A stretch of 64,000 nucleotides of DNA from an uncultured Planctomycetia bacterium (GCA_964559135.1 CAZLGG010000004.1:3447-67446), one strand, 5' to 3'; positions 18,791 to 64,000 are shown, counted from the stretch's first letter. Notes: generated from the sequence alone by a model not told the origin. Program-made: numbers and translations.

Positions 18791-21270
18791 CCGTCGTCCT
18801 CCCTCGTCGCGTTCTCGGCCATCTGCTTCTCCACGTCCCGTAACAAGCCGCGAGCTCGATCGAACAACAACTGGTCCTTGTGAATCCAGATGCATTGACG
18901 CATGCACTCGAGAAGGCTGTCGCGGGCATCCTGGAGTCGGCCGAGTCCCATCAGCGCACGGGCTCGGTGGAAGAGCAAGGAAGGGTCGAGGGGGCGGATG
19001 GCGAAGGCCTCGTCGATGAGCACGAGGGCGGATGCGGGGTCGCCGCGATCCAAGAGTCCGAGACCGACTCTCAGCCGCGCCTCCGACGACAGCGGATCGG
19101 CCTCCATGAGCTTGTTCCAAGCCTGGAAGGCCGCCGGCGAACCCGGGGAGTTTCGCTCGAGGATTTGGGCCCGGGCCTCGAGGACACGAGGCGATGTGGG
19201 ATCGATCGATGCCGCCCGCTGCAGGTGTTCGGTGGCGGATCGGAGTTTGTCGAACAGGTTGAAGATGCGCGCCAGCTCGACGTGGACATCGAGGCGATCG
19301 CCGGGATCGGGTTTCAGGTCGAGGGCCCGCCGCAACCACTCCATGGCGGGCAGGAGGAGCCCCTCTCTGGCTCGCACGCGCCCCATCAAGAGGGCGGCCC
19401 GTGCGGCGCGCGGGTTGAGCGCCACGGCGGTTTCCGCCTCCCGCCGCGCACCCGCGACATCGTCCCGGTTCAAGAGCATCTCCGCCAACACGACGTGTGC
19501 GTTGATGAGATAAGGGTGCAGCGCCAACGCGGAGCGAAAGGCCCTCTCCGCCTCGAGGGGACGTCCGGCACGTCGCAGGGCGTCCCCCACCAAAAGAGCA
19601 TAGCGGTACCGATCCGGCCGGCGGACCCAAGCCGTCTGTGCGTGGATCAGCTCGTTTCTGAGCTGGGCCTCGGCGACTCCGGGTGGGAGGGGCCCGACGC
19701 TGCGAAGCTGGAGAACGCGACGATGGTCTTCGCTCGCCTTCAGGGACGCTCTTCCGTGGGCGGCGGTGAGGACGAACAGTCCCGAGAAGACGAGAACAGG
19801 GATGAGCCGTCGGGACCACGGAACCGAACGGGGCGACCGAGGGGTTGTTTCGGCGCGAAGAACGATGGCGGCCAAGACCCAAAACCCGATGCGCGTTCCC
19901 GTCTGAAGGAAAGGAAACGAGACCATGGACGCCCCGAGAACCACGAGAAGCGAAAGCAACAGGGAACCCCGAAACCGCAGATCGTCGCCACAGGCCCGCC
20001 CAAGCCCCCGGAATCCTCCGAGAAAGACGCCTCCCACGGCAAGGAGCCAAAGGACCGCCCCGGGCAAGCCTCGCTCCGCGGCCAGATGCAACACGTCGTT
20101 ATGGGGTTTCGCGGGTTGGCGGCGCAACTTCAGACGTCCCGTCGCATGGGTGGCGCGCGACGCCGCGTACGCGGGATAAAAGACGGGAAACCCTCCCGGC
20201 CCGAAGCCCGTGACCGGCCGGTCCTCCACCATGGCCAGCGTGTTCTTCCAGAGGACGATCCGCTCCGTCACCGTGGTGTTTTCGCCGTCGAAGGCGGATC
20301 GAATCCGTCGCATCACCGTCGTCGGAGCCTGACCGTGGCGGGCACTTCCTTCGGTGAGCGAGGCCGCCGTCGCGAAGCCGCCCAAGAGCGCCAACGCCAC
20401 GAGTCCATGGAAGGTCAGATGCGCCATCCTGGAGCCGAAAAGAGGTCGATTCCGGGCGGACCGGACGACGAGATAGATCCCGGCCAGCCCGGATGCCCCG
20501 AGGAGGGAAATCATGACCGCCCGCGATCCGGTTTCAGCGATGTAGGTGGCGCAAAGGCCTGCGGCCAGAAGACAAGCCGCTCCCCGCGCGAGGTTCCATG
20601 CCCGGAGACCTCCAGTTCGGACGGCGTAGTTCCAAGCGAGCGCCAAAAGCGGGAACAAAGCCATGGCCACGAACTCCGCACCCATGTTCGGATGCCCGAA
20701 CGTGGAGGCCGGAGTGTCCGCCTGATCCAGGTCCGCGAAGAGACCTCCGGGGAAAACGCCCAGGGAACCCCGATGGGACCCATGCGCCAGCCCGTCCCCG
20801 ACGCCGCCGAGACCCGCAAGGGGGAGATTCGGGTGGGCGAGGAGAAACTGTCCGTGGCCCACGACGGCCGCGATGCACGCCGCCAAGCTCATGGCAACCA
20901 CGGCGCCTCGACGAAAGAATTCGTGAGTGGCGAGCTGCCAGGCCAGCAGAAACCACCCCAGAGTCTCCAGATCCCGCATCACGGGATCGGCGCCCTGAGA
21001 CGGGACGAGGGCCACGGCCCAGCAGACGAGCGCCCATATTGTGAAGATGACAACGAGCTTCGGAGACCAACTCCGTCCTCCGCCGTCCAGGACCTTCATG
21101 GAGCCGAAAACGGCCAGAAAAGCCCACAGACCCCAGATCATGAGCCCTGACAGAATCCGCCGAGGCAACTCGGTTTGTTCGTAGGCCTCCCTCCAATACA
21201 ACAAGGGGAAGATGAGAAGCCCTGCGCAGGCGGCGAGGGCGGCGATACGAATGACTCGCAATGGGGGCAT
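18787..21270 (-). CDS. O-antigen ligase/polymerase-like (Wzy_C) polytopic membrane protein fused to C-terminal TPR repeats
   Basis: About 827 aa from MPPLRVIRIAALAACAGLLIFPLLYW (SD GGAGG 4 nt upstream; the track ORF is open to 21339). N-terminal about 450 aa with about 10 TM helices including the Wzy_C-like stretch with ETGSRAV. The C-terminal about 350 aa are TPR-like (ALALHPYLINAHVVLAEMLL.., AVALNPRAARAALLMGRV.., ALDLKPDPGDRLDVHVELARIF..). Confidence 0.7.
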   Translation of the reverse strand: MPPLRVIRIAALAACAGLLIFPLLYWREAYEQTELPRRILSGLMIWGLWAFLAVFGSMKVLDGGGRSWSPKLVVIFTIWALVCWAVALVPSQGADPVMRDLETLGWFLLAWQLATHEFFRRGAVVAMSLAACIAAVVGHGQFLLAHPNLPLAGLGGVGDGLAHGSHRGSLGVFPGGLFADLDQADTPASTFGHPNMGAEFVAMALFPLLALAWNYAVRTGGLRAWNLARGAACLLAAGLCATYIAETGSRAVMISLLGASGLAGIYLVVRSARNRPLFGSRMAHLTFHGLVALALLGGFATAASLTEGSARHGQAPTTVMRRIRSAFDGENTTVTERIVLWKNTLAMVEDRPVTGFGPGGFPVFYPAYAASRATHATGRLKLRRQPAKPHNDVLHLAAERGLPGAVLWLLAVGGVFLGGFRGLGRACGDDLRFRGSLLLSLLVVLGASMVSFPFLQTGTRIGFWVLAAIVLRAETTPRSPRSVPWSRRLIPVLVFSGLFVLTAAHGRASLKASEDHRRVLQLRSVGPLPPGVAEAQLRNELIHAQTAWVRRPDRYRYALLVGDALRRAGRPLEAERAFRSALALHPYLINAHVVLAEMLLNRDDVAGARREAETAVALNPRAARAALLMGRVRAREGLLLPAMEWLRRALDLKPDPGDRLDVHVELARIFNLFDKLRSATEHLQRAASIDPTSPRVLEARAQILERNSPGSPAAFQAWNKLMEADPLSSEARLRVGLGLLDRGDPASALVLIDEAFAIRPLDPSLLFHRARALMGLGRLQDARDSLLECMRQCIWIHKDQLLFDRARGLLRDVEKQMAENATREDDG

Positions 21271-21428
21271 GAGTCCTCCCGAGAACCCGATTCTTCTCCC
21301 GAGAAAGTTGACCTTTCCTGTCCCGGGTTGCAAGTTCATGCAAGGTCGAGGGGCTCAAGTCTGTCCCCCCGCCCGTCGAAAGTCATTGAAGAGATCGGAC
21401 TTGCCGCAAGTCCTTTGAAAAAACCTTC

Positions 21429-29664: not shown

Positions 29665-30756
29665 GTGGCCAGGTCTCTTGGTGAGTCTCAAAATGTCCGT
29701 CACCTTCGCCGATCCCGTGACGTCTCGATGGCAGACGTGAGGTGTTTTCTCGAGACAAGGAAGGGAGACGTCGTCGTGCACGGAACTCATGATGGGGTGA
29801 CGCGGTTCGTTCTGAGTGATGCGGCGAGGATGAGGACCCTGCTCACGCATCTGCCCGATCCACCCCTCCCCTGGGTCAGCACCCTGGACACACTGGTGCA
29901 TTGGCCGGACGGCTTCGGCGAAGAATCGCCCGGGGCCCGACGAGCGGATATCGTCTTCGCCGGCCTCCCCGCGGCAGACGGGACGCCCCGTACCTGCCTC
30001 GTCTTCGAGAACCAGAGCATTCCCCTGTTGCACATGCCGATGCGCGCCCTCTGGTGCACCGTCCAAGTCTTGCGGGATTTCCGCGAGACCTTCGGACACG
30101 AAGCCACCCTGCCTGAGATCCATATCGTCGTGTTCTACCACGGAGAAAAGCCCTGGAGAGGCCCTCTCGCGTTGTACGTCGACGACGATGACGCACGTCG
30201 CTCCTCCATCAACTGCCGCTTCCATCTCATCGATCTGAATCGCATCAGTGACGAGGACATTCAGGAGCGTCTGGGGACGGGCCTGCTCACCCTGGGGGCC
30301 CTCGTTTTGAAACATGGCCGGCGCCCCGGCATGGGGGACAAGATTCCCGCCTGGGATCGTCACTTCGCCGCCGCCCTCGACGAAAACGGAGGCATGGACG
30401 GGGTCCGTGCCTGCATCGACTATCTTTTGGACGTTTCCGACGTGGGGCTGGAGGAGATTGAAGCCCTTCCCTTCGTACGGGACTCATGGGAGGTGCATAT
30501 CATGCTGAAGACGACGGGGCGAGAGCTCAGAGAAGAAGGTCGCCTCGTAGGCCGGGCCCAAGGGCTCGAGGAGGGCCGGGCCGAGGGCCGCGCGAAAGAG
30601 AGACGGGAGATGCTCCGCCTTCTCTTGCTCCGCCTGTTCGATGGCATTCCGGAGGATCTGGAGACCCGCATCGCAAAAGCATCCCCCGCGACCCTGACGC
30701 TGCTCATCGAAGCCGCCTTCGAGGTGGACGATCCGTCCGATCTCTTGAACGTTTGA
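29665..30756 (+). CDS. Rpn-family recombination-promoting nuclease / putative transposase (YhgA-like PD-(D/E)XK nuclease with C-terminal DUF4351)
   Basis: N-terminal HGTHDGVTRFVLSD..LLTHLP block matches the Rpn PHDxxFKxxL motif region. PD-(D/E)XK-like core (DIVFAG.., LVFENQS..). C-terminal LLLLRLFDGIPEDLETRIAKASPATLTLLIEAAFEVDDPSDLLNV is a typical DUF4351 tail. The start may instead be the Met at 29728. Confidence 0.7.
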   Translation: MARSLGESQNVRHLRRSRDVSMADVRCFLETRKGDVVVHGTHDGVTRFVLSDAARMRTLLTHLPDPPLPWVSTLDTLVHWPDGFGEESPGARRADIVFAGLPAADGTPRTCLVFENQSIPLLHMPMRALWCTVQVLRDFRETFGHEATLPEIHIVVFYHGEKPWRGPLALYVDDDDARRSSINCRFHLIDLNRISDEDIQERLGTGLLTLGALVLKHGRRPGMGDKIPAWDRHFAAALDENGGMDGVRACIDYLLDVSDVGLEEIEALPFVRDSWEVHIMLKTTGRELREEGRLVGRAQGLEEGRAEGRAKERREMLRLLLLRLFDGIPEDLETRIAKASPATLTLLIEAAFEVDDPSDLLNV

Positions 30757-51038: not shown

Positions 51039-52502
51039 ATGACCGCCGATGAACTCGCGGTGATTCTGAGAATCCTGCAGCCGCGGGTCATGGGGGGCTT
51101 CCTCCAAAAGATTCGCGAGGTCGCTCCGCACCGGATCATTCTAGGCTTTCACCGAGGGGGTGTCGGCGCCACCCAAATCCTCGTGGACGTGACGCCAACG
51201 GCCCCGCGGGTCCAGCCCACCGAACGGAGATTTCAGGCGCCCAAGTCGGCTTCTCCGTTCTCCTTGGCTCTCCGAAAACTCCTTCTCGGCGCCCGGCTGG
51301 ACGGGCTCCGCCAAGAGCCCGGCGACCGTATCGTCCACCTTCAGTTCCTGAAAAAGGAGGACGAGCGCCTCGTCCCGCGCGATCTGGTCATCGAGGTGAT
51401 CCCTCGCCGCGCGGGCCTTTTCGTCCTGGACGATGAGGCGTGCATTCTCCTCGCCTCGTCGGCGCGCGACGACCGCCGAGGTCGACTGGTGCGAGGGGGG
51501 ACTTGGTCACCGCCTCCCCCACCGCCGTCAACAGAGGACTTGCCGGCTCCTTTCTTGGAGTTCCCCGGATGGACCGAAGAAACGCTCCTCCATCGTCTCG
51601 ACGAGAAGCTGGAGGAGGCCGACTCCGAAGACGACGTCGACATGAAGGGGTTGTCGAAGAGTCTCACGAAGGCGATCAAGCGACAGTTCAAAAGGATCTC
51701 CAAGATCGAAGCCGACGTCCGCCGCCTCGACAGCGCGAAGGACGCCTACCGCGAAGGCGAAGCTCTGAAATCGGCGCTGGGAGACATCGAGAAAGGTGCG
51801 ACGACGGCACGCGTGCGCGACTGGAGCGTCGACCCTCCTGCCTGGATCGACGTCGATCTCGATCCGAAGCTCTCCCCCATCGAGAACGTGGAGCGGATCT
51901 TCAAGGAAGCCAAGAAGCGCGAGCGCGGCCTCGCCCTCGCGGAGAAACGCCTGGAAGAGCAGCGCCTGCGCCTCCAGCACCTCCAGTCGCTCGAAGAACT
52001 GCTTGGAGACGAGAGCCCGGAGGCCAAAGAGTTGCTCTTGGAGGAGACTCGAACGCTCGGCATCGAGGTGCCCCGCGCCCGAACCCCTGCCGAAAAAAAG
52101 AGTCGGCCCGAGCCCAGGCTTCCCTACAAGACCTACCACTCCGAAGACGGGACGCCGATCTGGGTCGGACGTTCCAGCCGCGACAATGACGTCCTCACCT
52201 TCCGCCACGCCAAGGGGAATCATTGGTGGCTCCATGCGGAGGACTACCCGGGTTCCCACGTCGTCGTCCCCATTGCAGATCCCCTCCCGCCGGAGGTCCT
52301 CGTCGATGCGGCAACCTTGGCCCTCGGATACTCGAAGGCGCCCAAGGGCGGCAAACAGGGAGTGTCGTATACCCGACGCAAGCACGTGACGAAATTCAAG
52401 GGGGCCAAGCCCGGACAGGTGCTGCTCCAAGAACGAAAAACCATCCTCATCCGAATCGACGCCGACCGATGGAAACGACTGACACACCGTTCCCTCCCGT
52501 GA
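51039..52502 (+). CDS. NFACT-family protein (FbpA/RqcH-like; NFACT-N, coiled coil, NFACT-R/DUF814)
   Basis: 487 aa. N-terminal NFACT-like region, central coiled coil, C-terminal DUF814-like block YHSEDGTPIWVGRSSRDNDVLTFRHAKGNHWWLHAEDYPGSHVVV. Confidence 0.65.
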   Translation: MTADELAVILRILQPRVMGGFLQKIREVAPHRIILGFHRGGVGATQILVDVTPTAPRVQPTERRFQAPKSASPFSLALRKLLLGARLDGLRQEPGDRIVHLQFLKKEDERLVPRDLVIEVIPRRAGLFVLDDEACILLASSARDDRRGRLVRGGTWSPPPPPPSTEDLPAPFLEFPGWTEETLLHRLDEKLEEADSEDDVDMKGLSKSLTKAIKRQFKRISKIEADVRRLDSAKDAYREGEALKSALGDIEKGATTARVRDWSVDPPAWIDVDLDPKLSPIENVERIFKEAKKRERGLALAEKRLEEQRLRLQHLQSLEELLGDESPEAKELLLEETRTLGIEVPRARTPAEKKSRPEPRLPYKTYHSEDGTPIWVGRSSRDNDVLTFRHAKGNHWWLHAEDYPGSHVVVPIADPLPPEVLVDAATLALGYSKAPKGGKQGVSYTRRKHVTKFKGAKPGQVLLQERKTILIRIDADRWKRLTHRSLP

Positions 52503-54615: not shown

Positions 54616-56820
54616 CTACTTCTTGACGTCCTCGGGCTTGGACTCGTCCTTGGGGTTCTCGCTGGCGCGCTTCGCCTTCTGGATGGCCTTCTGCCTCTCC
54701 TCGAGGCGCCGCTTGCGTTCAGCTTCGAGGCGCTTGCGGCTCTCTTCCGCCTTGCGTTCGTCCTCGCGCCGTTGAGCGATCTCCTTGTCGAGTTCCGCCG
54801 CGACGAGTTTGAAATCACCATTCTTCAGGTGCTCGTAGTCCCACATCGAGGGTTTGTGCTCCGCGGCCGCATTTTTGCGTTGGAGAGCGAACTCGGCCTG
54901 AGCCAAAAGCGAGGGGCGAAGGAAGATCTCCTCGTCGGAGGGGACCTTCTTGGCTTCGAGTTTGGCAATGCCTTCGAATCCTGGATAGGCGACCGACTTC
55001 ACGGACTCGGAGACCGTCCCGGGTTCGATGAATTTGTCGGCGGCGGCCTGATCGTGAAGCACGCGGAATTCGCGACGGAGGAAACTCCGAGCCATGTCTT
55101 CGGCCGTCACCTTTTCCTTGTCGAGGACCGGCTCGCGCACGGCCTCGTAGGGGAGGAAGAAACCTTCCTCGACCACCAACGCATCCGACGCCTCGGAGAG
55201 AGCCGCATCGAAGGCCTCGCCGCGATACTTCTCCTTCTCCTCGTCGATCCGGGCCTTCGCCTCCTCGTCCTTTTGCTTTTTGATCTCTTCGATCCGGGCC
55301 TTGTCCTTCTCGGGATCGAGCCCCTGGATCTCTTCCTGGGTCTCCTTCGCGATGTCGGCCTTCACGGTGGCGGCGAAGTCTTTCACCTTCTCATCCAGGA
55401 CCTGATCCATCGCCTTTTGGAAACCCTCGATGGCCGCCGTACGCAGCTTTTCGGCCTCCTTGGCTTCGAAATCCTTCGCGACATCGTCGCGGACGGCATT
55501 CAACACCGGAATAGGACTCAAATCCTTGTCCACGAGGCGCCAGATCGACCCGTGCTTTCCGACGACGTCGACCACCCCCTGATCGAAGGGATCGGTCTCA
55601 GGAGTGACCACGTTGCGCATCGTCAAGAGCGTGCCCGGCTTCAGTCCCTGAAGCTGGAACGGATAGGTTCCGGGCACGTCGGGATGGTTGGTGAGGTCCT
55701 GAAGGGTCACCTTGCTGAACTTGAAATAGGAGAGATTGTTTTTCTTGGCGACGGCCGCGAGGTCGATCGGCTTTCCGGCCGCACTCGTCTTCACGAGTTC
55801 ATCGTGGACCTTCTTGAGCAGCTCGAGGATCTTCCACTCCTCGATGAATCGCTGCTTGCGCTTCTCGAAAACCTCGTCGATGTCGGCATCTTTGTCGATT
55901 CCATACTCTTCCCGGTGGCGATCGGCGCGACCCTTCAACTTGGCCAGAACGGCGTCGTCCGGTTCGAACTCCTGGGTGAGTTCCTCCAAGGACGTCTTGC
56001 TGATGGGATTGACCTTTTTGAAATCGTCGTCGAGAACCGCGTCGTCCTTATACTTGTCCTTCCCGAAGAGAAAGCCCACGTACTCGGCCGTCAAGAGCGC
56101 GCCTCCCTTGTGGAAACGTTTTTTCTCATCGTCGGTGAGGCTTTTCCAATACTCTTCGAGCTTCGCCAAGGATTCGGCCGAGTCATCGCCATTCTCGTCC
56201 TTTTCGAGCTTGCTCTTTGCTTCGAACGTGGCGGGATCGAAGATGACACCCTTGAGTTTGATCTTCTGAAACTGTTTCTGGTACTGCTCGAAGATCTCTT
56301 GGCTCGAGAGGAGTCCGATGGCCCGATCGATCTCGCGCATGAGCTTCGCCAGGCGAGCGTCCTCACGGAGCGCCGCTTCGAAAGAAGAGGGAGTCCGGCG
56401 ATAGACTCTGTTGCAGAACTGGATGTAGGCCTGAGGATCGAACTTCCCGTCGTTGGCCTGGGCGATCGTCTCCCGCACTTCCTTGTCCAGGATCTCCTGG
56501 AATTCCTCCTCACTGAGATGGATGCCGGCCGCGTCGACCAGTCGCTCTCGGATGAGACGGGCCAGCAGATTGGCTTGGCGCTCCTCGAGGTCCTCCGTCG
56601 AGCCACCGAGAGAACCGCTCGCATAGAGGTCGCGTCGTGTGATCTCGTGCTTTTCCCCATCGACGACGAACGAGGCCACGACCTCCTTCGCCTTGATTTC
56701 GTCCTTGGAAGGGCCTTGGACCCACTGGACGACGAAAACCCAGACACCGAACCCGGCCATCGCGAACAAGACGGCGATCAGGATGGGAGTTCGGTACTTC
56801 TCCATGAATTGGAAGATCAT
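54616..56820 (-). CDS. membrane-anchored periplasmic chaperone, SurA-N/PpiD-like (low-complexity Lys/Glu-rich)
   Basis: 734 aa. N-terminal signal-anchor TPILIAVLFAMAGFGVWVFVV, then a long helical region with a chaperone-like SurA_N-type start (..ASFVVDGEKHEITRRDLY..). Extreme K/E-rich C-terminus. No parvulin catalytic motif seen. The assignment is tentative. Confidence 0.45.
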   Translation of the reverse strand: MIFQFMEKYRTPILIAVLFAMAGFGVWVFVVQWVQGPSKDEIKAKEVVASFVVDGEKHEITRRDLYASGSLGGSTEDLEERQANLLARLIRERLVDAAGIHLSEEEFQEILDKEVRETIAQANDGKFDPQAYIQFCNRVYRRTPSSFEAALREDARLAKLMREIDRAIGLLSSQEIFEQYQKQFQKIKLKGVIFDPATFEAKSKLEKDENGDDSAESLAKLEEYWKSLTDDEKKRFHKGGALLTAEYVGFLFGKDKYKDDAVLDDDFKKVNPISKTSLEELTQEFEPDDAVLAKLKGRADRHREEYGIDKDADIDEVFEKRKQRFIEEWKILELLKKVHDELVKTSAAGKPIDLAAVAKKNNLSYFKFSKVTLQDLTNHPDVPGTYPFQLQGLKPGTLLTMRNVVTPETDPFDQGVVDVVGKHGSIWRLVDKDLSPIPVLNAVRDDVAKDFEAKEAEKLRTAAIEGFQKAMDQVLDEKVKDFAATVKADIAKETQEEIQGLDPEKDKARIEEIKKQKDEEAKARIDEEKEKYRGEAFDAALSEASDALVVEEGFFLPYEAVREPVLDKEKVTAEDMARSFLRREFRVLHDQAAADKFIEPGTVSESVKSVAYPGFEGIAKLEAKKVPSDEEIFLRPSLLAQAEFALQRKNAAAEHKPSMWDYEHLKNGDFKLVAAELDKEIAQRREDERKAEESRKRLEAERKRRLEERQKAIQKAKRASENPKDESKPEDVKK

Positions 56821-57019
56821 GGACGTGCTTCCTCTTTTTCTGTGGACCGTGGGAAACGGGGTCGACGGACCCGTCCCGAAGTCCTCTTATCGGCGAAGGT
56901 TGCGGATTATAAGCGTAGGCATCGATCGGACAAGGAAAACCCCGGAGACTCCGGTGGAAGCCTGGGCACGGAAATCATTTATACACAATGGCTTATGCCC
57001 GCCTCCGCGAGGCCCGGGT

Positions 57020-57613
57020 TCAGAGATCTCGGCCGCGCGGCAAGTCCTTGAGGTTCTTGAGCCCGAAATGCTCGAGAAAACGACGGGTGGTGCCGTACTG
57101 AAACGGGCGCCCGGGGAGGTCCACTCGTCCCACCACCTTCACCATCTTGCGATCCATGAGGTTGCGAATCAGTTGACCGGACCCCACGCCGCGGATGGCG
57201 TCCACCTCGGCGCGGGTGATGGGCTGCTTGTAAGCGATGATCGCGAGAGTCTCCAACCCGGCAGCGGTGATACGTTCCTCGGTCCGGGTCCGTCCAAGCT
57301 TCTGCACCCATTCCCAAAGCTCCTCGCGAGAGACGATCTGAAAACCACCGGAGACCTCCTGAAGAAGGATGCCCGAGCCCTCGGCCTCATAGCGCTCCTG
57401 CAGCGCGGACAGGGCGGCACGGATCTCGTCGTTCGGGACGTCGTCATCCGGGAGAATCTTGCGAAGCGCTCGGAAGGTCAAGACGTCGGGGGAAGCGAAG
57501 AGCAAGGCCTCCACGACGGCGCGGACACGGGCCGCGGGCCAGGGTTGGGACTCCTCAACGTCCCGCGCTTCGTTTTCGGTGGATTCGGCTGATGCGTCAC
57601 TCATGGCGAACAT
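57020..57613 (-). CDS. scpB: segregation and condensation protein B
   Basis: 197 aa. Tandem winged-helix ScpB signature VVEALLFASPDVLTFRAL.. and GLETLAIIAYKQPITRAEVDAIRGV. Confidence 0.85.
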   Translation of the reverse strand: MFAMSDASAESTENEARDVEESQPWPAARVRAVVEALLFASPDVLTFRALRKILPDDDVPNDEIRAALSALQERYEAEGSGILLQEVSGGFQIVSREELWEWVQKLGRTRTEERITAAGLETLAIIAYKQPITRAEVDAIRGVGSGQLIRNLMDRKMVKVVGRVDLPGRPFQYGTTRRFLEHFGLKNLKDLPRGRDL

Positions 57614-57649: not shown

Positions 57650-58660
57650 TCAGCGCCCCTGCACCTGGATCTTCGTCATCCGCTCCACCCGGAGCTGCCA
57701 CATGTACCATTCATCTTCGCTCATGGGGCGTGTGGTCAACCCGTGGACGATCTCATCCTCGACATCCCGGTAGGAGGTCTTCCGGCCCTTGTGGCGCTCC
57801 ACGATTCTCACGATCTGGTACCGCCGCCGACCCACCGCATCGCGCGCCTCGATGACCGAACTGACGCTGCCCACGGGGAGATCGAATGCCACCCGCTCGA
57901 GGGCTGGATTCAGTGCCAACCTCCAGACGGGGAACATCAATCCACCGTTCTCCGCCGAGGGATGGATGCTGTAGGTCCGAGCGAGCGCGGCGAAGTCAGC
58001 ACCGTCCTCGAGCATGGCTCGGATCTTTCGAGCCTGGACCGGATCGGTGAGACTGATGATGCGAAAACGGACCCGATCCTCGAGGATTTCCTGATACCGA
58101 ACGAGCCGCGAGAGCAACCGCTTCGATCGCTCGCGATTGCGGGCGACCCTTTCGTACTCCGTGAGCCCCTGACCGGTTTTCCGCAACAACCACGTTTCGA
58201 GATCGAGAGCGCGGCCGGTTTCCAGGCGAGCCCGCTCGCGCATCTGCTTCTCTTGGCCCGCCCACCAACGGTCGATCTCGTCTTCATCGACGCGGATGCC
58301 GTACTTGGCGACCTCGACGGCGAGAACCCGGTTCGACAGCATGACCGCGATGGAGGATCTCACCTTCTCGGGAAACGTCTGGAGCATGTAGTCGTAGACC
58401 TGGCTTTTCGTCAGGTCCTCGCTCCCCACGCTGGCCACGACGGCATCGCCGCCCTTGGGAAACTCCAAGAAATCAGGACCGTCGCCGCGGTGGACATCGA
58501 TGCTGCGCAGCGACGCGGCGGGGTCTTCCGAGGTCATGGACGGGGCTTCGGCCACGGGATCGCGAGGCGCCTCGGATTCCCCCTCCTCCACCTCGCCCCA
58601 GATCGGGGCACTGCGACAGGAAACCAGACACAAAAGACATGCGGCAAGAAGGTACTTCAT
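57650..58660 (-). CDS. parvulin-type peptidyl-prolyl isomerase lipoprotein (SurA/PrsA-like)
   Basis: Lipoprotein signal MKYLLAACLLCLVSC. N-terminal chaperone-like helical region. PpiC-type PPIase domain FAALARTYSIHPSAENGGLMFPVWRLALNPALERVAFDLPVGSVSSVIE. The ORF is open to 58777. Confidence 0.7.
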   Translation of the reverse strand: MKYLLAACLLCLVSCRSAPIWGEVEEGESEAPRDPVAEAPSMTSEDPAASLRSIDVHRGDGPDFLEFPKGGDAVVASVGSEDLTKSQVYDYMLQTFPEKVRSSIAVMLSNRVLAVEVAKYGIRVDEDEIDRWWAGQEKQMRERARLETGRALDLETWLLRKTGQGLTEYERVARNRERSKRLLSRLVRYQEILEDRVRFRIISLTDPVQARKIRAMLEDGADFAALARTYSIHPSAENGGLMFPVWRLALNPALERVAFDLPVGSVSSVIEARDAVGRRRYQIVRIVERHKGRKTSYRDVEDEIVHGLTTRPMSEDEWYMWQLRVERMTKIQVQGR

Positions 58661-58739: not shown

Positions 58740-60206
58740 TCACCTGAAGTTGATGGTGCGATCGCCCTTGTTTCCATGGCAACGCGGGCAAGTCCGCCTC
58801 ACGATGCCCCCCTGGCTTCCCAACTCTTTGATGCTCCCGGTCGCCCCGCAGGTCGGACAGGGGCGCATGAAGGTGTTCAGCACCTCGAATTTCTTGGCGT
58901 TCTCCGCGAAATAGGCCCTGAGGAAAAAACTCCGTTGGATCATGCTGGCCCGCACCCACCACTGCTCCTTCGTCACGAGCTTCTTCTTCTGAGGCTGCGC
59001 CTGGGGCTGGTTTCTCCCACCCCGGCGGTTCCGCCGCAAGCGATTGATGAGTTCTTGGACCTGGCGATTCCCGCCGCCGCTACCGTCGCCAACCTTCTTC
59101 TCTCCCATGACGACGAAAGTCCCGGAACCGTAGCTGGCCGTCCGGCGGGCTCCCTTGGGGCGATCCTCCCACATTTTCTCGACCTCCTTCTTCGGGTCGA
59201 GGGAGAACTTCTTCGCGATGGCCTCGACGACGTCCTTGTGCAACTGGGAGCGCACATAGCTCATCGCCTTGTCGATCGAGACGCGCTTTTCCTTGTCGCC
59301 ACTGCCGATGTTCTTGTCGGAAGCCACCTTCCGAATGAGACGATCGACCTGCCGCCGATACTCTCGAGCCACCTGTTGGCGAAAATACCCCCACCGCTTC
59401 TGGAGAACGCGTTCCTTTTTCTTCTCGATCTCCTTCCGAGTGACGGCGTCGAGATCCCCCAGAGACAGCAATTCGTCGAGCAAACTGACCGCCACGTCGA
59501 AGTGACGCCTGGCCGCTTCCAGATCCGCCTCCCGAACACCGTTGCGAATCTCCTTGCGGCGATCCAAGACCTCGAGTCGTTTCAGTTGATTCGCGACGTA
59601 GTCGGGCCGGAACTCGGAATCGATGCTCTGCACTTGCCGATAGTGCTCGACGGCCTTCGCGTACATGCCGACCTTCGCCGCCCAGCGAGCCATGGCGAAT
59701 TGGGCTTGTAGGTCGTCATCGGTGGGCCGGCGCCTCTCCAATTCCTGCTGATAGAGCTCTTCCGGCGAGTAGACGTCGAACTTGCTGACGAGGCGATCCT
59801 CGATACGACGGATGGCGGACCGAAGGAACGCCGTCTCCCCTTTCACCGTGCGAAGGTAGACACGTTCCTGATCCTCGGGGTGCGGAACGACGACACCGTC
59901 GTAATCGTCACCCTTGATCGTGTAGATCCGCTGTCCGGGCATCTGGAGGTCCGCGCCCGACAGGTCGTCGTCGAGCCCGAATTCGACGCGCAGACGTTGG
60001 CGGTCCTCTTCGCGAAGCAACTCCCAGCGGATGAACAGATGCCCACCCGTGTCCAAACGCCGGACTTCGATCCCTTTCTCTGTTCCGGAAAGGAGTCGCA
60101 CTTGCAACAGGCGGCCGTCCTTCAGAAAGATGACCTCCGCCAGGGCGGCGACACCCATCCACAGGACGAGAACCGCGGTGAGAAACAGTCTGCTACGACT
60201 CATCAT
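58740..60206 (-). CDS. signal-anchored hypothetical protein with C-terminal CxxC..CxxC zinc-ribbon, distal gene of the pseudopilin operon
   Basis: 488 aa from MMSRSRLFLTAVLVLWMGVAALAE. The start overlaps the stop of the upstream pseudopilin gene by 1 nt (TAATG). Helical/TPR-like middle. C-terminus RPCPTCGATGSIKELGSQGGIVRRTCPRCHGNKGDRT. Confidence 0.5.
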   Translation of the reverse strand: MMSRSRLFLTAVLVLWMGVAALAEVIFLKDGRLLQVRLLSGTEKGIEVRRLDTGGHLFIRWELLREEDRQRLRVEFGLDDDLSGADLQMPGQRIYTIKGDDYDGVVVPHPEDQERVYLRTVKGETAFLRSAIRRIEDRLVSKFDVYSPEELYQQELERRRPTDDDLQAQFAMARWAAKVGMYAKAVEHYRQVQSIDSEFRPDYVANQLKRLEVLDRRKEIRNGVREADLEAARRHFDVAVSLLDELLSLGDLDAVTRKEIEKKKERVLQKRWGYFRQQVAREYRRQVDRLIRKVASDKNIGSGDKEKRVSIDKAMSYVRSQLHKDVVEAIAKKFSLDPKKEVEKMWEDRPKGARRTASYGSGTFVVMGEKKVGDGSGGGNRQVQELINRLRRNRRGGRNQPQAQPQKKKLVTKEQWWVRASMIQRSFFLRAYFAENAKKFEVLNTFMRPCPTCGATGSIKELGSQGGIVRRTCPRCHGNKGDRTINFR

Positions 60207-60691
60207 TAACGCTCCGTCTTGGCCCCACCGAGGGGCTCCAAGCGACTCGAACTCTTCCGCACGAGATCTTCGAAACTCGGTCTGAGACTCATGGGGAGAT
60301 AGCCCCAATCATAACCCTCCTCCTCGGAAACTCCCCGAGGAATCACCCGTATGCGGACCAACCACCCTCGCCCGCCCTCCTCACCCGGATACGGCAGGGC
60401 GTCGACCGTGTACTCCAAGCCCTCGCGACCGGGGACAGGCTCTCGCTCCAGGTGGATCTCTCCATCCGCCCCGTCACGCGTGAGAGCCATCAGGCGCTCA
60501 CGGACCGCACCATGAAGTTCGGCCTGAGCAGCGGCAGCGTCCAGTTCCACCTCGGCGTCCCGCGCAAGATTCAGTCCCGCGGAAAACAGTCCCACGATTC
60601 CGGTCATTCCCACGAGCAAGATGGAAAACGCCACCAGCAACTCGACGAGAGTGAAGCCCGCGCAACGCGATGAATTCCGGCTCGCATTCAT
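60206..60691 (-). CDS. prepilin-type N-terminal cleavage/methylation domain protein (minor pseudopilin, GspI/H-like)
   Basis: 161 aa. Short basic leader MNASRNSSRCA, then G-FTLVELLVAFSILLVGMTGIVGLF (class III signal with Glu at +5). The start overlaps the stop of the upstream pseudopilin (ATGA). Confidence 0.7.
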   Translation of the reverse strand: MNASRNSSRCAGFTLVELLVAFSILLVGMTGIVGLFSAGLNLARDAEVELDAAAAQAELHGAVRERLMALTRDGADGEIHLEREPVPGREGLEYTVDALPYPGEEGGRGWLVRIRVIPRGVSEEEGYDWGYLPMSLRPSFEDLVRKSSSRLEPLGGAKTER

Positions 60692-61938
60692 TTCACGCCC
60701 TCCCCGGCGCGCCGAAAGAAACTTCGCCCCGCCGGAACGATGAGATCCCGCCGGAAGGAGCGTCCAGCCAGCACCGCGCTTCCGGAGACGTGGCGCGCGG
60801 GATGAGTTCCCCGGACACCGCGGCGCACCTGGAGATCGGGACCGTCGGCGGCGACGACCTCCATCCACTCGTCCTCGATGCGCAGATGCCGGGGCCCGCG
60901 TCCCGCATCGAATTCGACGAAGAGCTCGGGATCGCTGATGCGCAGACTGCGTTCGCGCGTCCCGACGTCCCCCACGAGTGCCGCCGCCGCGGCGGCACCT
61001 TCGGGGGCGAACGTGACGACGAGCCGCAGTCGCTTGGGATAGACGTCGTCCTCGGTGTCCTGCAGGGAAGCTCCCCCGACACCCAAACCGAACGGTTCGT
61101 AGAGACCCCGGGTGCTGTCCCACCAGAGTTCGCTCCAGTCATTGGGCTTTCGTCCGAGGCCCTCACCCGAGAGAACATCCTCCTCTCGCCACTCCTTGGT
61201 GTTCTGACTCCAGCAAACGAGACCGAAATAGAGGATTCCCGTGACGACGGGGCTTGCATGGGCCTCCAACCAGTCGGCGGTCATGACTTTCGAGGGATCC
61301 GGTTGCAAGAGGGAGCCCTTCCCTCCGATCGGCGACCGAAAGACCCGATAGAGCGTATACGTGTGGGGCGCATCGGACGGTCCTCGATCCAGATACCAAG
61401 CCACTTCCATCAGGTTCTCGGGCGGCAACAGACCCGGTGCGGCCTGTCCGGATTGCTTCTTCGGGTCCGAGAGTGCGCCGCTCTCCTCGAGATCGTTCAC
61501 GCCGTCGATGTAGGCCTCTGACCCCAGACGCGTCCCGGCGAACCGTGCGACCGTGCTCTCACGCTCGCTCCCGGGATAGGTCCTTGCGAAACGCAAAAGA
61601 AAAGACCGCGGGTCCCCGGTCGCATAGGTCTTGGTGGCAACGTTGCCCGGGTCGTCGCCCTTGGGCGCCACCAGAATCGAGACGCGATCATGGCTGAGGA
61701 AAAAGGGAGCCGTGACTCCGCCGCCATCCGGGTCGCCGATCCAGGTGCAGCGCAGGTCCTCCTCCAGGAGCCGCAGCGTCTGATCCATTTTGTCGTTCAA
61801 TTCGCCCCCGCCCCTCCCGGACCGATAGATGCCCAGGCTCTGTCGCATGAGGACGAACACGAAGAGGCCGAGCACGGAGAAGATGCTCATGGCGACCATC
61901 AATTCGATGAGCGTGATGCCGGATCGTCTGCCCCTCAT
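60688..61938 (-). CDS. large prepilin-type N-terminal domain protein (GspJ/K-like minor pseudopilin, 416 aa)
   Basis: Leader MRGRRSG, then ITLIELMVAMSIFSVLGLFVFVLM, then an about 380-aa periplasmic domain. The start overlaps the stop of the upstream large gene (ATGA). Confidence 0.65.
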   Translation of the reverse strand: MRGRRSGITLIELMVAMSIFSVLGLFVFVLMRQSLGIYRSGRGGGELNDKMDQTLRLLEEDLRCTWIGDPDGGGVTAPFFLSHDRVSILVAPKGDDPGNVATKTYATGDPRSFLLRFARTYPGSERESTVARFAGTRLGSEAYIDGVNDLEESGALSDPKKQSGQAAPGLLPPENLMEVAWYLDRGPSDAPHTYTLYRVFRSPIGGKGSLLQPDPSKVMTADWLEAHASPVVTGILYFGLVCWSQNTKEWREEDVLSGEGLGRKPNDWSELWWDSTRGLYEPFGLGVGGASLQDTEDDVYPKRLRLVVTFAPEGAAAAAALVGDVGTRERSLRISDPELFVEFDAGRGPRHLRIEDEWMEVVAADGPDLQVRRGVRGTHPARHVSGSAVLAGRSFRRDLIVPAGRSFFRRAGEGVK

Positions 61939-64000
61939 CGCAACGCCTCCCTCGACCCCACGATGGGCTCGGCCAAGTAGCGCAATTCGAGGTCCAAGAG
62001 TCTCGGCGTCTCCTTCCAATCGTTGCGTGTCATGTTCACAGGGTCGATGGCGTCGGGGCGATACGTGAAGAACACACGCCCCTCGAGGCCCTTGCCGCCT
62101 CGATTGAGGAGGAATCGATCGAGTTTGTCGCGCGCTCTCCCCGATGCACTCTCCAAAAGAAGCAACTTACCGGCTGATTTCTGCGGGGGAGTATCCCAGG
62201 GGATCTCAGGATCGAAACGGAGAAGGACGTTGAGACCGATCGCCGGCTTATCGAAACGGTGATGCCAGGCGATGCCGCGGATGAAACTTCTCGCCTCCGA
62301 CATGGAAAAGCCGAAGAAGGCGAGTTCGGGATCATCGGAGTTGGGCGTGTACCGGTCCCAGTATCGAAACGGCATCTCCAGGACGATCTCCGATTGGGGA
62401 TGACTGCCGCGAAGCGTTCCATAGCGTCCCCGGAAGATGCCGACGGATCGACCTGTCTTGGGGTCGTCACCCTGGGGCATGCGGAGTTCCCCTCCCTGGG
62501 ACTGGACGTAATGCGCCATCTCTCGACCGACGAGCACCGTTCCGCCCTCGAAGGGGAAGTCCCGGCCGTCCTGGACGGCAATGCGGTAGTCGTCGGGCTG
62601 AAGCTCGCGGCTCAGTCGACTCACCACGCGCCAATCCAGGAACGTGATGTTGGAACCGAATCCGTGCTTTTCCGGCGTGGTCCCCATGAATCCTCGTTCG
62701 CAGTCGAGGAGCCGGGGCGGATCCCCCTGAGCCACGCCGCGATACGCGATGATCTCGTCATCGATGAGGACGAGACCGGCATCCGTGGGCAACGTGACGC
62801 TCCCCTGGCCCACGAGCAACTCTCGCCCGTCGCTCAGCCAGTCATTGAGTTGGTTGCTGAGATTCCCCGGCAGATCCGGAACCCACCAGGCCTGAACGAT
62901 GGGGATTTCCGTCGCGCTGTCGTCCAGTCCCAGCGGAAAGGGATCCGGAGCCCCCCCCACCGGGTTCACGAGCTGCTGGTCCCAGAGGACGAACCGTTCC
63001 TCCCTGAGTCGGGCCAGACGCACCTCGTCGAGGAGCCCTCCGCCCCGCGGACTTCCCCCCGCATCGCCGCCCACCCAGGCATCCGGGGAACGCCCCACGT
63101 TCGGCATCTCGCCGGAAGGAAACTTGACGAGGCGTGTGTATCGCCGACGATCGCGGTTGTCGAAACTCCGTCCACCCAGGGGGAGAGCGATCTGGTTGAG
63201 GCGGCCGAGAATGTTCTGCGTCAGCGCCACGAGGGGCCCGTTCGTCCACGCGACATAGAAGCGCCCCCGGAAGTCATCGACCGGCGAGATCACGGTGACG
63301 CTGTCACCGTAGCCGGCGGCGGTGGCGCCTCGAAGATTCGTGACCGTCGTCCGGAAAACGGGAATGGCGGAATTCCCCGCGGGGTGGACCGCGGCGGAAT
63401 CCGTCGGATCGAAATAGCCGAACTGGTCGGTACCGGCTTGGCTGCGGAACCGGAGTTGATTGTTCACCGTGATGGGATCCGGAGCGGGCGGCATATTCGT
63501 GGACCCACCCCCGGGATTGAAGCCCCCACCACCGTTGATTTGGTTGCGAACCGCATTGACCGCGGCCGCCAGGCGACTCCTCTCGTGGCAAAGCAACATC
63601 CCGCCCGCCCGATCCACTCCGTAGTAGGCGATCCACTCCACCCGATGCGACGCGAAGTTCTGGAACGTGGGGCGTTGCAGTGGCTGTCCCAACTGGATGT
63701 ACTCGGCTCGGGGGGTCCCGTTCGCCAGTTCCGGCTCCTTGTAGCCCTCGGCATCGGTGAGGTGGATCGAGATGGGGAAGATGGCCGCCACGCCCGGGGA
63801 ATTCGGGCCGCCTCCCGTGAGGCGTGTGACGATCTTTGCCAGGGTCGCGGTGTAGAGCGTCGTGTTGGCGTTGAGGGGCAATTGGTCCGCCAACTGGGGA
63901 TTGAAGGGATTCGTGACGGACGTCACGCCGGTCAACCGAGCGCCCTGTCGGCCTTGGAATCGAATGAGCTGGGCCACGGTCATGAGCTGAGTGTTGAGAT
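61935..64000 (-). CDS. large hypothetical secreted/periplasmic protein, first visible gene of the pseudopilin operon (5' end outside the window)
   Basis: The reading frame is open from the window edge; at least 688 aa are in the window. Gly/Pro/Asp-rich with no recognisable domain. Its stop is coupled to the next gene. Candidate pilus/pseudopilus tip or GspK-like component. Confidence 0.5.
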   Translation of the reverse strand, partial: LNTQLMTVAQLIRFQGRQGARLTGVTSVTNPFNPQLADQLPLNANTTLYTATLAKIVTRLTGGGPNSPGVAAIFPISIHLTDAEGYKEPELANGTPRAEYIQLGQPLQRPTFQNFASHRVEWIAYYGVDRAGGMLLCHERSRLAAAVNAVRNQINGGGGFNPGGGSTNMPPAPDPITVNNQLRFRSQAGTDQFGYFDPTDSAAVHPAGNSAIPVFRTTVTNLRGATAAGYGDSVTVISPVDDFRGRFYVAWTNGPLVALTQNILGRLNQIALPLGGRSFDNRDRRRYTRLVKFPSGEMPNVGRSPDAWVGGDAGGSPRGGGLLDEVRLARLREERFVLWDQQLVNPVGGAPDPFPLGLDDSATEIPIVQAWWVPDLPGNLSNQLNDWLSDGRELLVGQGSVTLPTDAGLVLIDDEIIAYRGVAQGDPPRLLDCERGFMGTTPEKHGFGSNITFLDWRVVSRLSRELQPDDYRIAVQDGRDFPFEGGTVLVGREMAHYVQSQGGELRMPQGDDPKTGRSVGIFRGRYGTLRGSHPQSEIVLEMPFRYWDRYTPNSDDPELAFFGFSMSEARSFIRGIAWHHRFDKPAIGLNVLLRFDPEIPWDTPPQKSAGKLLLLESASGRARDKLDRFLLNRGGKGLEGRVFFTYRPDAIDPVNMTRNDWKETPRLLDLELRYLAEPIVGSREALR

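What the first reader, a model, noticed from the sequence alone, without database searches (positions are those of the whole stretch)
58740..64000. Translationally coupled pseudopilin operon with atypical partners (large upstream protein, two prepilin-like genes, zinc-ribbon protein)
Four consecutive minus-strand genes are chained by overlapping stop/start codons (ATGA, ATGA, TAATG). They are a protein of more than 682 aa that runs off the window, a 416-aa and a 161-aa protein that both begin with short basic leaders followed by G-(F/I)TL(V/I)EL and a hydrophobic helix (prepilin peptidase substrates), and a 488-aa signal-anchored protein ending in a CxxC-x18-CxxC zinc ribbon. Classical T2SS or type IV pilus minor-pilin operons (gspGHIJK, fimU-pilVWXY1E) do not include a membrane-anchored zinc-ribbon protein. 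No GspG-like major pseudopilin, ATPase, platform protein or secretin is visible. This may be a streamlined or novel pseudopilus-type module, with the zinc-ribbon protein as a new accessory or regulatory component. The next genes downstream are a SurA-like PPIase lipoprotein and scpB.
Basis: partly seen in the sequence, partly recalled or inferred. Interest (0 to 1): 0.6.

Follow-up and report, generated by a model that had tools for sequence, protein, structure and literature searches.

The report
Planctomycete pilus operon, giant tip subunit
The four overlapping genes are the tail end of a roughly ten-gene operon for a pilus or secretion-type filament machine found only in uncultured Planctomycetota, with a 1660-residue tip subunit and a conserved, uncharacterised periplasmic zinc-finger protein.

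Summary
Four minus-strand genes are joined by ATGA, ATGA and TAATG overlaps, and two of them carry true prepilin (N_methyl) leaders.

A 99.98%-identical contig continues past the window edge. There the ">682 aa" protein is the last 687 residues of a 1660-aa GspK-like giant minor pseudopilin. It is preceded by a GspG-like gene, a GspH-like gene with a Laminin-G module and a 977-aa TPR protein, all overlapping or 3 nt apart.

In orthologous loci the operon starts further upstream with a 2xFHA membrane protein, a PilM-PilN fusion and a PilO-like protein. A sigma-54 activator and a TPR-lipoprotein secretin lie nearby. No ATPase, platform protein or prepilin peptidase was found in about 80 kb.

- The zinc-ribbon protein has a Sec signal peptide, two small beta-barrels, a TPR/helical region and a DnaJ-type CxxCxGxG zinc finger.
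- Its family has 720 cluster representatives; every named member sampled is from Planctomycetota MAGs.
- In all 10 loci examined it follows the GspI-like gene.

I read this as a new variant of the type IV filament superfamily. The zinc-finger protein's function is inferred (assembly chaperone or scaffold), not shown.

The parts
61935..64000 (-). The 3' end (687 codons, residues 974-1660) of a 1660-aa GspK-like giant minor pseudopilin. This part holds two copies of a phage-tail-fibre-like (Rcc01698_C-type) 'RGxxGTxxxxH' module.
   Evidence: The ORF is open to the window edge. The full-length gene is on L001, 99.98% identical over 13.3 kb. The N-terminus ARGDEG|IALIIVLSVL has no Glu5 and hits GspK NF037980 at 2.6e-6. 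Orthologues hit Pfam T2SSK at 24.8 bits (above the 24.2 cut-off), Laminin_G_3 and Rcc01698_C. Module copies are shown.
60688..61938 (-). A 416-aa GspJ/PilW-like minor pseudopilin with a C-terminal phage-tail-fibre-like beta module.
60206..60691 (-). A 161-aa small minor pseudopilin. I assign it as GspI/PilV-like from its size, position and N-terminus only.
   Evidence: N_methyl 31.5 bits. Weak N-terminal hits to PilV, XpsI and ComGE. No PDB sequence match. Its fold was not predicted.
58740..60206 (-). A 488-aa exported protein. It has a Sec signal peptide, two small SH3/Tudor-like beta-barrels (about 24-141), a TPR and long-helix region (about 148-347), a disordered basic Gln-rich linker, and a DnaJ-type CxxCxGxG...CxxCxG zinc ribbon (442-487).
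57650..58660 (-). A 336-aa parvulin-type PPIase lipoprotein. It is the conserved next gene, 79 nt downstream here and overlapping the zinc-finger gene by 4 nt in two distant loci. It is a possible operon member.
   Evidence: Pfam Rotamase 4e-8. Lipobox LVSC. Present after the zinc-finger gene in every locus. The overlaps are in L020 and L024.
54616..57613 (-). ScpB (57020-57613) and a 734-aa PpiD-like membrane-anchored protein (54616-56820). They are conserved neighbours of the block; whether they are functionally linked is unknown.
   Evidence: SMC_ScpB 1.8e-52 and SurA_N_3 9.6e-5. N-terminal TM at 13-31. They remain adjacent in L023 and L024, where synteny further downstream is lost.

Best explanation
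The four genes are the distal part of one long operon. It is at least 13 kb in this strain and about 18 kb with ten genes in orthologues, running from the 2xFHA gene to the zinc-finger gene. The operon encodes a type-IV-filament (T2SS/T4P-like) machine specific to an uncultured Planctomycetota lineage.

Shown:
- The operon encodes a full G-H-K-J-I set of prepilin-type subunits.
- The K subunit is a 1660-aa giant with a ConA/Laminin-G-like domain and several phage-tail-fibre-like modules.
- H carries a Laminin-G module.
- J carries one tail-fibre-like module.

Inferred from the established behaviour of GspHIJK and FimU-PilVWX complexes:
- K-J-I, joined by H, form the priming complex at the filament tip.
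- The Glu5-less K sits at the apex, so the grafted lectin-like and tail-fibre-like modules would be displayed at the tip of a G-type fibre.
- The fibre would be assembled on a PilM-N/PilO platform and pass through the TPR-lipoprotein secretin.
- The likely function is glycan or surface binding, by analogy with modular lectin pilins.

Inferred for the zinc-finger protein:
- It is exported to the periplasm.
- It most likely acts as a dedicated assembly factor for this bulky tip complex, either a holdase/redox chaperone or a TPR scaffold. It may work together with the adjacent parvulin PPIase lipoprotein.

The ATPase, platform protein and prepilin peptidase must be encoded elsewhere in the genome.
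For: Gene chain and overlaps.

Identity of L001 with the window.

Prepilin motifs in five consecutive proteins.

Subunit assignments:
- GspG-like N-terminal half: TIGR01710 8.8e-16 and Pfam T2SSG 5.7e-6.
- H-like with Laminin_G_3 at 4.5e-9.
- K-like: NF037980 2.6e-6, no Glu5, and the T2SSK domain above Pfam's cut-off in orthologue L024.

The J C-terminal module HMM hits all 7 giant orthologues at E 2e-7 to 3e-10, while controls score 0.5 or worse.

Machine parts in orthologous loci:
- PilM_2 at 71 bits (cut-off 27) with a TM segment at 373-391, a bitopic 273-aa protein, and a 2xFHA protein with one TM segment.
- Secretin, Pfam 91-103 bits.
- Sigma-54 activator, and a conserved TGGTAC-N5-TTGCT element upstream of the FHA gene.

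Zinc-finger protein:
- Confident model.
- Conserved Cys and Gly motif.
- 720 family representatives; every named member among 20 clusters sampled is from Planctomycetota.
- Invariable position after the I-like gene, with gaps of -4 to +77 nt, across orthologues down to 31-33% identity of the J-like protein.
- The arrangement holds in loci where outer synteny is lost.

Precedent for tip-located modular lectin pilins: PMC9934059, PMC8179133.
Against: - No assembly ATPase, PilC/GspF or prepilin peptidase was found near the locus. A working machine is therefore assumed, not shown.
- The G-, H-, I- and K-like proteins match the Gsp models mainly in the N-terminal helix and all fall below the curated cut-offs.
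- The I-like assignment has no structural support.
- The zinc-finger protein has no homologue of known function. A Cys4 zinc site in an oxidising periplasm is unusual, and the fourth Cys is Ser in 7 sequences.
- PPIase, ScpB and the PpiD-like gene are also always adjacent. The zinc-finger protein could therefore belong functionally to that group rather than to the pseudopilins.
- All organisms are uncultured, and there are no expression or localisation data.
Confidence: 0.6

Rival explanations
1. It is a true type II secretion system. The G-H-I-J-K set would form a short periplasmic pseudopilus that pushes exoproteins through the secretin. The giant K and the lectin-like modules would recognise cargo or cap the piston rather than form a surface adhesin.
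For: The pilin set is of the Gsp type (GspG, GspH/XpsH, GspK and GspJ are the best family or fold matches). The secretin matches GspD at 4.4e-25. No retraction ATPase was seen.
Against: The platform is PilM-type (Amuc_1101 family 3.7e-42, PilM 6.8e-25), not GspL. No GspC, GspE or GspF was found. The secretin matches MshL better, at 5.8e-31. A 1660-aa cap carrying ConA-like and tail-fibre-like modules fits an exposed adhesin better (inference; precedent in PMC9934059).
Confidence: 0.2
2. The zinc-finger protein is a structural part of the envelope-spanning machine. It could be a periplasmic connector or pilotin-like TPR scaffold between the inner-membrane platform and the secretin, functionally like GspC, PilP or TsaP. 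It would not be a chaperone.
For: The operon lacks any recognisable GspC or PilP. The protein has protein-protein interaction modules, namely two small beta-barrels and TPRs. It is translationally coupled to structural genes.
Against: It has no detectable similarity to the GspC HR, PilP or pilotin folds. Two other large TPR proteins and a TPR-bearing secretin are already present. The DnaJ-type CxxCxGxG motif is typical of chaperone or redox modules (background knowledge, not tested here).
Confidence: 0.2
3. The zinc-finger protein is unrelated to the pseudopilus. It belongs with the next genes (PPIase lipoprotein, PpiD-like) as a general envelope protein-folding set, and it sits beside the pseudopilin operon only through inherited synteny.
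For: PPIase, ScpB and the PpiD-like gene follow it in every locus. In L020 and L024 its stop codon overlaps the PPIase start.
Against: It is more tightly joined to the upstream I-like gene than to the PPIase gene. The upstream gaps are -4 to +77 nt, median about 14. The downstream gaps are -4 to +506 nt, median about 50. In this window it shares a base with the I-like stop codon but lies 79 nt from the PPIase gene. Every named member among the clusters sampled is from Planctomycetota, the only phylum in which this operon was seen.
Confidence: 0.15

Closest known systems
T2SS pseudopilus tip complex GspH-I-J-K with major pseudopilin GspG (for example ETEC GspK-I-J, PDB 3CI0; P. aeruginosa XcpW)
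   Same: - Five consecutive prepilin-type genes.
- The K-like protein lacks Glu5, and its orthologues carry the T2SSK domain.
- The G-like N-terminal half matches GspG.
   Different: - The gene order is G-H-K-J-I.
- K is 1660 aa, against about 330 aa, and has ConA-like and tail-fibre-like inserts.
- H and J carry extra modules.
- All members score below NCBIfam's Gsp cut-offs.
- There is no GspC, E, F or L; the platform is PilM-type.
Modular minor pilins of Streptococcus sanguinis T4P (PilB with a vWA module, PilC with a ConA-like lectin module)
   Different: That is a monoderm system with no secretin. The proteins are much smaller. There are no tail-fibre-like modules and no zinc-finger partner.
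PVC-superphylum pilus cluster of Akkermansia (MUL2: Amuc_1098 secretin, Amuc_1101 PilM-like, Amuc_1102 pilin)
   Same: The best NCBIfam match of the PilM-N fusion is the Amuc_1101 family (3.7e-42, covering model positions 40-478 of 608). The secretin also matches the Amuc_1098 family (1.8e-21). Both systems are in PVC bacteria. MUL2 is linked to glycan attachment and uptake (PMC13174399).
   Different: The scores are far below the family cut-offs (145 against 650, and 76 against 750). MUL2 has an archaeal-type pilin and no G-H-K-J-I set, no giant subunit and no zinc-finger protein (PMC13174399).
Verru_Chthon cassette (TIGR02600 protein A of about 1300 aa, plus prepilin-type proteins B, C and D)
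   Same: A very large protein with a GspK-like N-terminus is encoded among small prepilin-type genes in PVC-related bacteria. There are weak N-terminal hits to A (5.7e-5), C and D.
   Different: The hits cover only the N-terminal helix (21 bits against a cut-off of 332). I found no literature on the cassette. I do not know of a zinc-finger partner in it (from memory, not tested).
LapB (YciM) and DnaJ-like cysteine-rich zinc-finger assembly factors
   Same: The architecture is an N-terminal hydrophobic segment, TPRs and a C-terminal Cys4 ribbon. There is a weak LapB hit (0.014) and a weak DnaJ_CXXCXGXG hit (0.021). One NCBI record names a family member as a DnaJ-like cysteine-rich domain-containing protein.
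   Different: LapB faces the cytoplasm, whereas this protein has a Sec-type signal peptide. There are two beta-barrels and long helices that LapB lacks. All scores are below cut-offs, and no J domain is present.

Membership tests
Type IV filament superfamily pilin or pseudopilin (class III signal peptide) | A short basic leader ending in Gly, then a hydrophobic alpha1-N helix with Glu at +5 (PF07963 / TIGR02532). | tested here: met
   The 416-aa and 161-aa proteins score 29.8 and 31.5 bits against a cut-off of 21.2. The G-like and H-like proteins score 34.5 and 32.3 bits.
Type IV filament superfamily pilin or pseudopilin (class III signal peptide) | Processing by a prepilin peptidase encoded in the genome. 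| not testable with these tools
   None was found in the window or in the fetched loci. The rest of the genome could not be searched.
GspJ / PilW minor pseudopilin (416-aa protein) | The GspJ-type pilin fold. | tested here: met
GspJ / PilW minor pseudopilin (416-aa protein) | Sequence membership (TIGR01711 gspJ curated cut-off). | tested here: not met
   There is no gspJ hit at E<=0.1 for this protein.
GspK / PilX minor pseudopilin (giant protein) | A prepilin-like N-terminus without Glu5. | tested here: met
   The N-terminus is ARGDEG|IALIIVL, with Ile at +5. NF037980 hits residues 13-74 at 2.6e-6.
GspK / PilX minor pseudopilin (giant protein) | The T2SSK domain (PF03934). | tested here: inconclusive
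   Orthologue L024 scores 24.8 bits, above the 24.2 cut-off. L020 scores 18.9 bits. There is no hit for the window-lineage protein.
GspK / PilX minor pseudopilin (giant protein) | NCBIfam equivalog cut-off (NF037980, 130 bits). | tested here: not met
   27.2 bits.
GspI / PilV minor pseudopilin (161-aa protein) | Sequence or fold membership. | tested here: not met
   PilV reaches 21 bits against a cut-off of 52, and XpsI 18.6 against 150. There is no PDB sequence match. The fold was not predicted.
Canonical T2SS (Gsp) operon | GspE ATPase, GspF platform protein and GspC, L and M encoded with the pseudopilins. | tested here: not met
   No G..GSGK[ST] Walker A motif occurs in any frame of the window or the 19 loci then fetched (L001-L019). 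The platform is PilM_2. No GspC or GspL hit was found.
Canonical T2SS (Gsp) operon | A GspD secretin. | tested here: inconclusive
   A secretin domain is present in orthologous loci about 9 kb upstream of the operon (Pfam 91-103 bits). It scores 88 bits against the GspD cut-off of 351, and MshL scores higher.
T4aP / MSHA-type pilus machine | A PilM actin-like protein with PilN/PilO partners and a secretin. | tested here: met
   PilM_2 scores 71 bits against a cut-off of 27, with a TM segment at 373-391. There is a bitopic 273-aa protein and a secretin.
T4aP / MSHA-type pilus machine | PilB/PilT ATPases and PilC. | tested here: not met
   None was found within the window or the fetched loci.
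Verru_Chthon cassette (TIGR02596-02600) | Curated subfamily cut-offs. | tested here: not met
   Protein A scores 21 against 332, C scores 15.5 against 256, and D scores 21 against 70.
DnaJ-type cysteine-rich zinc finger (PF00684) | Paired CxxCxGxG motifs. | tested here: met
   The motifs are C450-P-T-C-G-A-T-G and C473-P-R-C-H-G. The Cys are conserved in 170-177 of 179 sequences, with G455 in 153 and G457 in 173.
DnaJ-type cysteine-rich zinc finger (PF00684) | Pfam gathering score; zinc binding. | tested here: not met
   15.5 bits against a cut-off of 32.7. Metal binding cannot be tested with these tools.

The most novel reading that the evidence does not exclude
This operon may build the glycan-binding surface fibres of a large uncultured Planctomycetota lineage. 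These would be filaments whose tip is a 1660-aa GspK-derived adhesin assembled from lectin and phage-tail-fibre modules, used to capture polysaccharides or particles. That would be in line with the dextran-binding fibres of cultured planctomycetes and the MUL2 pilus of Akkermansia. In this reading the 488-aa protein founds a new class of periplasmic pilus-tip assembly chaperone built on a DnaJ-type zinc (or redox) finger.
Probability: 0.15. Interest if true: 0.75.

Novelty: new variant of a known kind. Interest (0 to 1): 0.5.

Why it matters
Type IV filament machines are among the most widespread bacterial nanomachines, and new functions usually arise from changes in the minor-pilin tip complex. 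This locus takes that principle to an extreme.
- It has a GspK homologue five times the usual size.
- It has lectin-type and phage-tail-fibre-type modules on three of the four tip subunits.
- It has a phylum-restricted exported zinc-finger/TPR protein with no characterised relative.

The block is conserved across deeply diverged, uncultured Planctomycetota: 720 family representatives at 50% identity. It is therefore probably part of the core biology of that lineage.

If the fibre binds glycans, it would give a genetic handle on how PVC bacteria capture macromolecules. That question is open for planctomycete fibres (PMC5394234) and is only starting to be addressed in Akkermansia (PMC13174399).

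If the zinc-finger protein is a tip-complex chaperone, it would be a new kind of accessory factor for these machines.

Tried and rejected
- PDB sequence searches gave nothing beyond TPR repeats for the zinc-finger family profile, the giant protein and the 161-aa protein.
- The afdb50 library was unavailable. I therefore could not list annotated AlphaFold relatives or cultured hosts.
- BLASTP of the H-like protein against the giant protein showed no significant similarity. The ConA-like domains are not recent duplicates of each other; the giant's domain was detected only by Pfam on the excised region and in orthologues.
- Motif scans for GspE/PilB/PilT Walker A found nothing in the window or the 19 loci then fetched, L001-L019. 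Pfam scans of 20 other window genes found only housekeeping functions.
- A full-text search for the Verru_Chthon cassette returned nothing. A search for a planctomycete T2SS or pseudopilin system returned only a generic review.
- The word-index homologue search suggested a tiny family of 25 proteins. The exhaustive profile search corrected this to 720 representatives.
- I considered a cytoplasmic LapB-like orientation for the zinc-finger protein. I rejected it because the N-terminus has the positive-inside, AxA-cleavage form of a Sec signal peptide. This is sequence reading only; no predictor was run.
- The sigma-70 and terminator scans did not exceed shuffled expectation.

Full report
**1. 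Observation**

The minus strand of 58740-64000 carries four ORFs at the reported coordinates.
- The first, 61935 upward, has no in-frame stop before base 64000, so it runs off the window with 687 codons visible.
- The junctions read cgATGAgg, aaATGAat and gtTAATGatg. These are 4-, 4- and 1-base overlaps between stop and start codons.
- The 416-aa and 161-aa proteins pass Pfam's gathering score for the N-terminal methylation motif: 29.8 and 31.5 bits against a cut-off of 21.2.
- Its N-terminus (MMSRSR, a hydrophobic core, then ALA|E) reads as a cleavable Sec signal peptide rather than an anchor. This is my reading; no predictor was run.
- Downstream lie a parvulin PPIase with a lipobox, ScpB, and a PpiD-like membrane-anchored protein.
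- Consensus promoter and terminator scans inside the chain do not exceed shuffled expectation.

**2. Beyond the window edge**

An exact-protein look-up of the 416-aa product found an ENA metagenome contig, L001. It is 99.98% identical to the window over the 13,313 bases they share.

On L001 the ">682 aa" protein is a 1660-aa protein. Four further genes precede it, overlapping or 3 nt apart:
- the end of a 272-aa protein;
- a 977-aa TPR protein with an N-terminal anchor;
- a 216-aa prepilin-type protein whose N-terminal half matches GspG (TIGR01710 8.8e-16; Pfam T2SSG 5.7e-6);
- a 323-aa prepilin-type protein with GspH/XpsH-like N-terminal hits and a Laminin_G_3 domain at 4.5e-9.

**3. The large protein is the GspK-like subunit**

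- Its N-terminus is ARGDEG|IALIIVLSVLTMLLVIA. This is a prepilin-like segment with Ile in place of Glu5, and it hits GspK (NF037980, 2.6e-6) and Verru_Chthon protein A (5.7e-5).
- Orthologues hit Pfam T2SSK at about residue 406-470. L024 scores 24.8 bits, just above the gathering score of 24.2. L020 scores 18.9 bits.
- Orthologues also hit Laminin_G_3 or Laminin_G_2 at about residues 630-830. The excised window-lineage segment scores 7.5e-4.
- They also hit Rcc01698_C, a gene-transfer-agent/phage tail module. L020 scores 29.4 bits against a cut-off of 27.

**4. The 416-aa protein is GspJ-like and carries a phage-like module**

That C-terminal module has the motif 'IxIDDEWxEV...RGxRGTxxxxH'. 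It recurs in the giant protein. An HMM built from the J-like C-termini hits all seven giant orthologues at E 2e-7 to 3e-10, while the H, I, TPR and zinc-finger controls score 0.5 or worse.

I call the 161-aa protein I-like only from its size, position and N-terminus.

**5. The wider locus**

I used orthologous loci from metagenomes and GTDB genomes. In these the chain starts further upstream with three genes:
- a protein of about 810 aa with two cytoplasmic FHA domains, one TM segment and a large periplasmic part;
- a 560-aa PilM_2 protein (71 bits against a cut-off of 27; best NCBIfam match the Amuc_1101 family at 3.7e-42) with a TM segment at 373-391, which makes it a PilM-PilN fusion;
- a bitopic 273-aa protein.

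Directly upstream lies a sigma-54 activator (FHA-GAF-AAA-HTH). Further upstream are another TPR protein of about 1000 aa, asparagine synthase, a HAD hydrolase and a secretin of 857-920 aa. The secretin has TPRs and a lipobox, and its best NCBIfam match is MshL at 5.8e-31.

A TGGTAC-N5-TTGCT element lies 87-132 nt upstream of the FHA gene in seven of ten loci. This suggests a sigma-54 promoter for the whole operon.

No GspE/PilB-type Walker A motif occurs in any frame of the window or of the 19 loci then fetched, L001-L019. Twenty other window genes are housekeeping. The ATPase, platform protein and prepilin peptidase were therefore not found.

**6. The zinc-ribbon protein**

The word-indexed search found only 25 relatives. 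An exhaustive profile search of 1.84 billion representatives found 720 at E<=1e-3 and 229 at E<=1e-30. Among the best 150 listed, most matches span the full length and the proteins are 328-619 aa, most of them 440-562 aa. Every named member among 20 clusters sampled is an uncultured Planctomycetota MAG protein.

The four Cys and the CxxCxGxG glycines are conserved in 170-177 of 179 sequences. The fourth Cys is Ser in seven sequences.

The AlphaFold model has pLDDT 85.7. It shows:
- a signal helix;
- two small beta-barrels (24-141);
- a TPR and long-helix region (148-347);
- a disordered basic linker;
- a helix followed by a beta zinc ribbon (413-487).

**7. Conservation of the arrangement**

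In ten distinct loci the order is always:
- TPR;
- G-like;
- H-like (not called in L023);
- giant K-like (1556-1775 aa);
- J-like (351-449 aa);
- I-like (148-183 aa);
- zinc-finger protein (470-619 aa);
- PPIase;
- ScpB;
- PpiD-like protein.

The ten loci are L001, L003, L005, L006, L008, L020, L021, L022, L023 and L024, limited in some by contig ends. L004 and L007 duplicate L003, and L002 is a fragment of L001.

Gaps between the I-like gene and the zinc-finger gene run from -4 to +77 nt. The order holds where the J-like protein is only 31-33% identical, and in L023 and L024, where synteny beyond the PpiD-like gene is lost.

The PPIase, ScpB and PpiD-like genes are equally constant. In two loci the PPIase start overlaps the zinc-finger stop. 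The zinc-finger protein's allegiance, to the pseudopilus or to a folding module, therefore remains open.

**8. Mechanism**

Shown:
- a complete G-H-K-J-I pseudopilin set, embedded in a PilM-N/PilO-type operon, with a secretin nearby;
- extra ConA-like and tail-fibre-like modules on H, K and J.

Inferred from established knowledge of the GspHIJK and FimU-PilVWX priming complexes and of modular pilins (PMC9934059, PMC8179133):
- K, J and I, joined by H, nucleate the filament and remain at its tip;
- the grafted modules are displayed there, most plausibly for glycan or surface binding.

Inferred more weakly:
- the exported TPR/DnaJ-type zinc-finger protein helps fold, hold or dock the very large tip subunits, possibly together with the adjacent PPIase lipoprotein.

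Rivals:
- a true secretion pseudopilus;
- a structural connector role for the zinc-finger protein;
- mere synteny.

**9. Comparison with known systems, and novelty**

The system belongs to the type IV filament superfamily but fits no described class.
- The pilins are Gsp-like but fall below every curated Gsp cut-off.
- The platform is PilM-type and closest to the Akkermansia Amuc_1101 family, far below that family's cut-off.
- The secretin is nearest to MshL.
- The Verru_Chthon cassette resembles it in having a giant protein among pseudopilins, but only the N-terminal helices match.

I found no paper describing this locus. I rate it a new variant of a known kind, with moderate interest (0.5).

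The organisms are uncultured, and the zinc-finger protein's function is inference. The scale of the K subunit, the phage-derived modules and the conserved orphan accessory protein are unusual nonetheless.

Noticed in passing
L007 about 85 (111 nt before the FHA gene start at 196); L008/L009 at -132; L010 at -130; L012 at -111; L013 at -123; L014 at -87: A conserved sigma-54-type -24/-12 element (TGGTAC-N5-TTGCT and close variants) lies upstream of the first operon gene. It sits next to a gene for an FHA-GAF sigma-54 activator. No chance expectation was computed.
   Followed up: partly
Alignment A1, column of window-protein residue C476 (window about 58779-58781): The fourth zinc-ribbon cysteine is replaced by Ser (CPRSHG / CPRSQG) in seven related sequences (P0003-P0007, P0010, P0011). 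The other three Cys are nearly invariant in 179 sequences. This is odd for a strict Cys4 zinc site.
   Followed up: partly
window 57020-57613: A scpB gene with no adjacent scpA sits between the PPIase gene and the PpiD-like gene. It stays there in every orthologous locus, even very distant ones. A chromosome-segregation gene inside an envelope-protein block is unexplained.
   Followed up: partly
L011 1565-4097; L009 1506-4084: A HAD-family hydrolase and a glutamine-dependent asparagine synthase are conserved between the secretin and the upstream TPR gene. They may play a modification role, or they may be unrelated.
   Followed up: no
window 18787-21339 (-): An 850-aa protein with a Wzy_C (O-antigen ligase-like) domain followed by TPRs. 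From memory, enzymes of this family include pilin O-glycosylases. No link to the pseudopilins was tested.
   Followed up: no
window 51039-52502 (+): A 487-aa NFACT_N/NFACT-R protein (RqcH/FbpA-like, ribosome quality control) lies near rnpA-yidD. It is conserved in L001, L003/L004 (one locus), L007 (the same locus again, cut at the locus end) and L020.
   Followed up: no
window 12171-14276 (-): In this 701-aa ORF the prolipoprotein diacylglyceryl transferase (LGT) domain occupies only residues 435-691. This is either a long N-terminal extension or an over-extended ORF call.
   Followed up: no
window 8335-12177 (+): A DNA polymerase I ORF of 1280 aa in which the 5'-3' exonuclease domain starts only at residue 385. 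The start codon is probably over-called, or there is an N-terminal extension.
   Followed up: no
window 29665-30756 (+): A YhgA-like (Transposase_31) protein at 1.9e-12 sits among housekeeping genes.
   Followed up: no
window 3-2463 (+): An NfeD-type membrane protein and a FloA flotillin-like protein (1.4e-148) lie in the same orientation, with a 163-aa gene between them that was not scanned.
   Followed up: no
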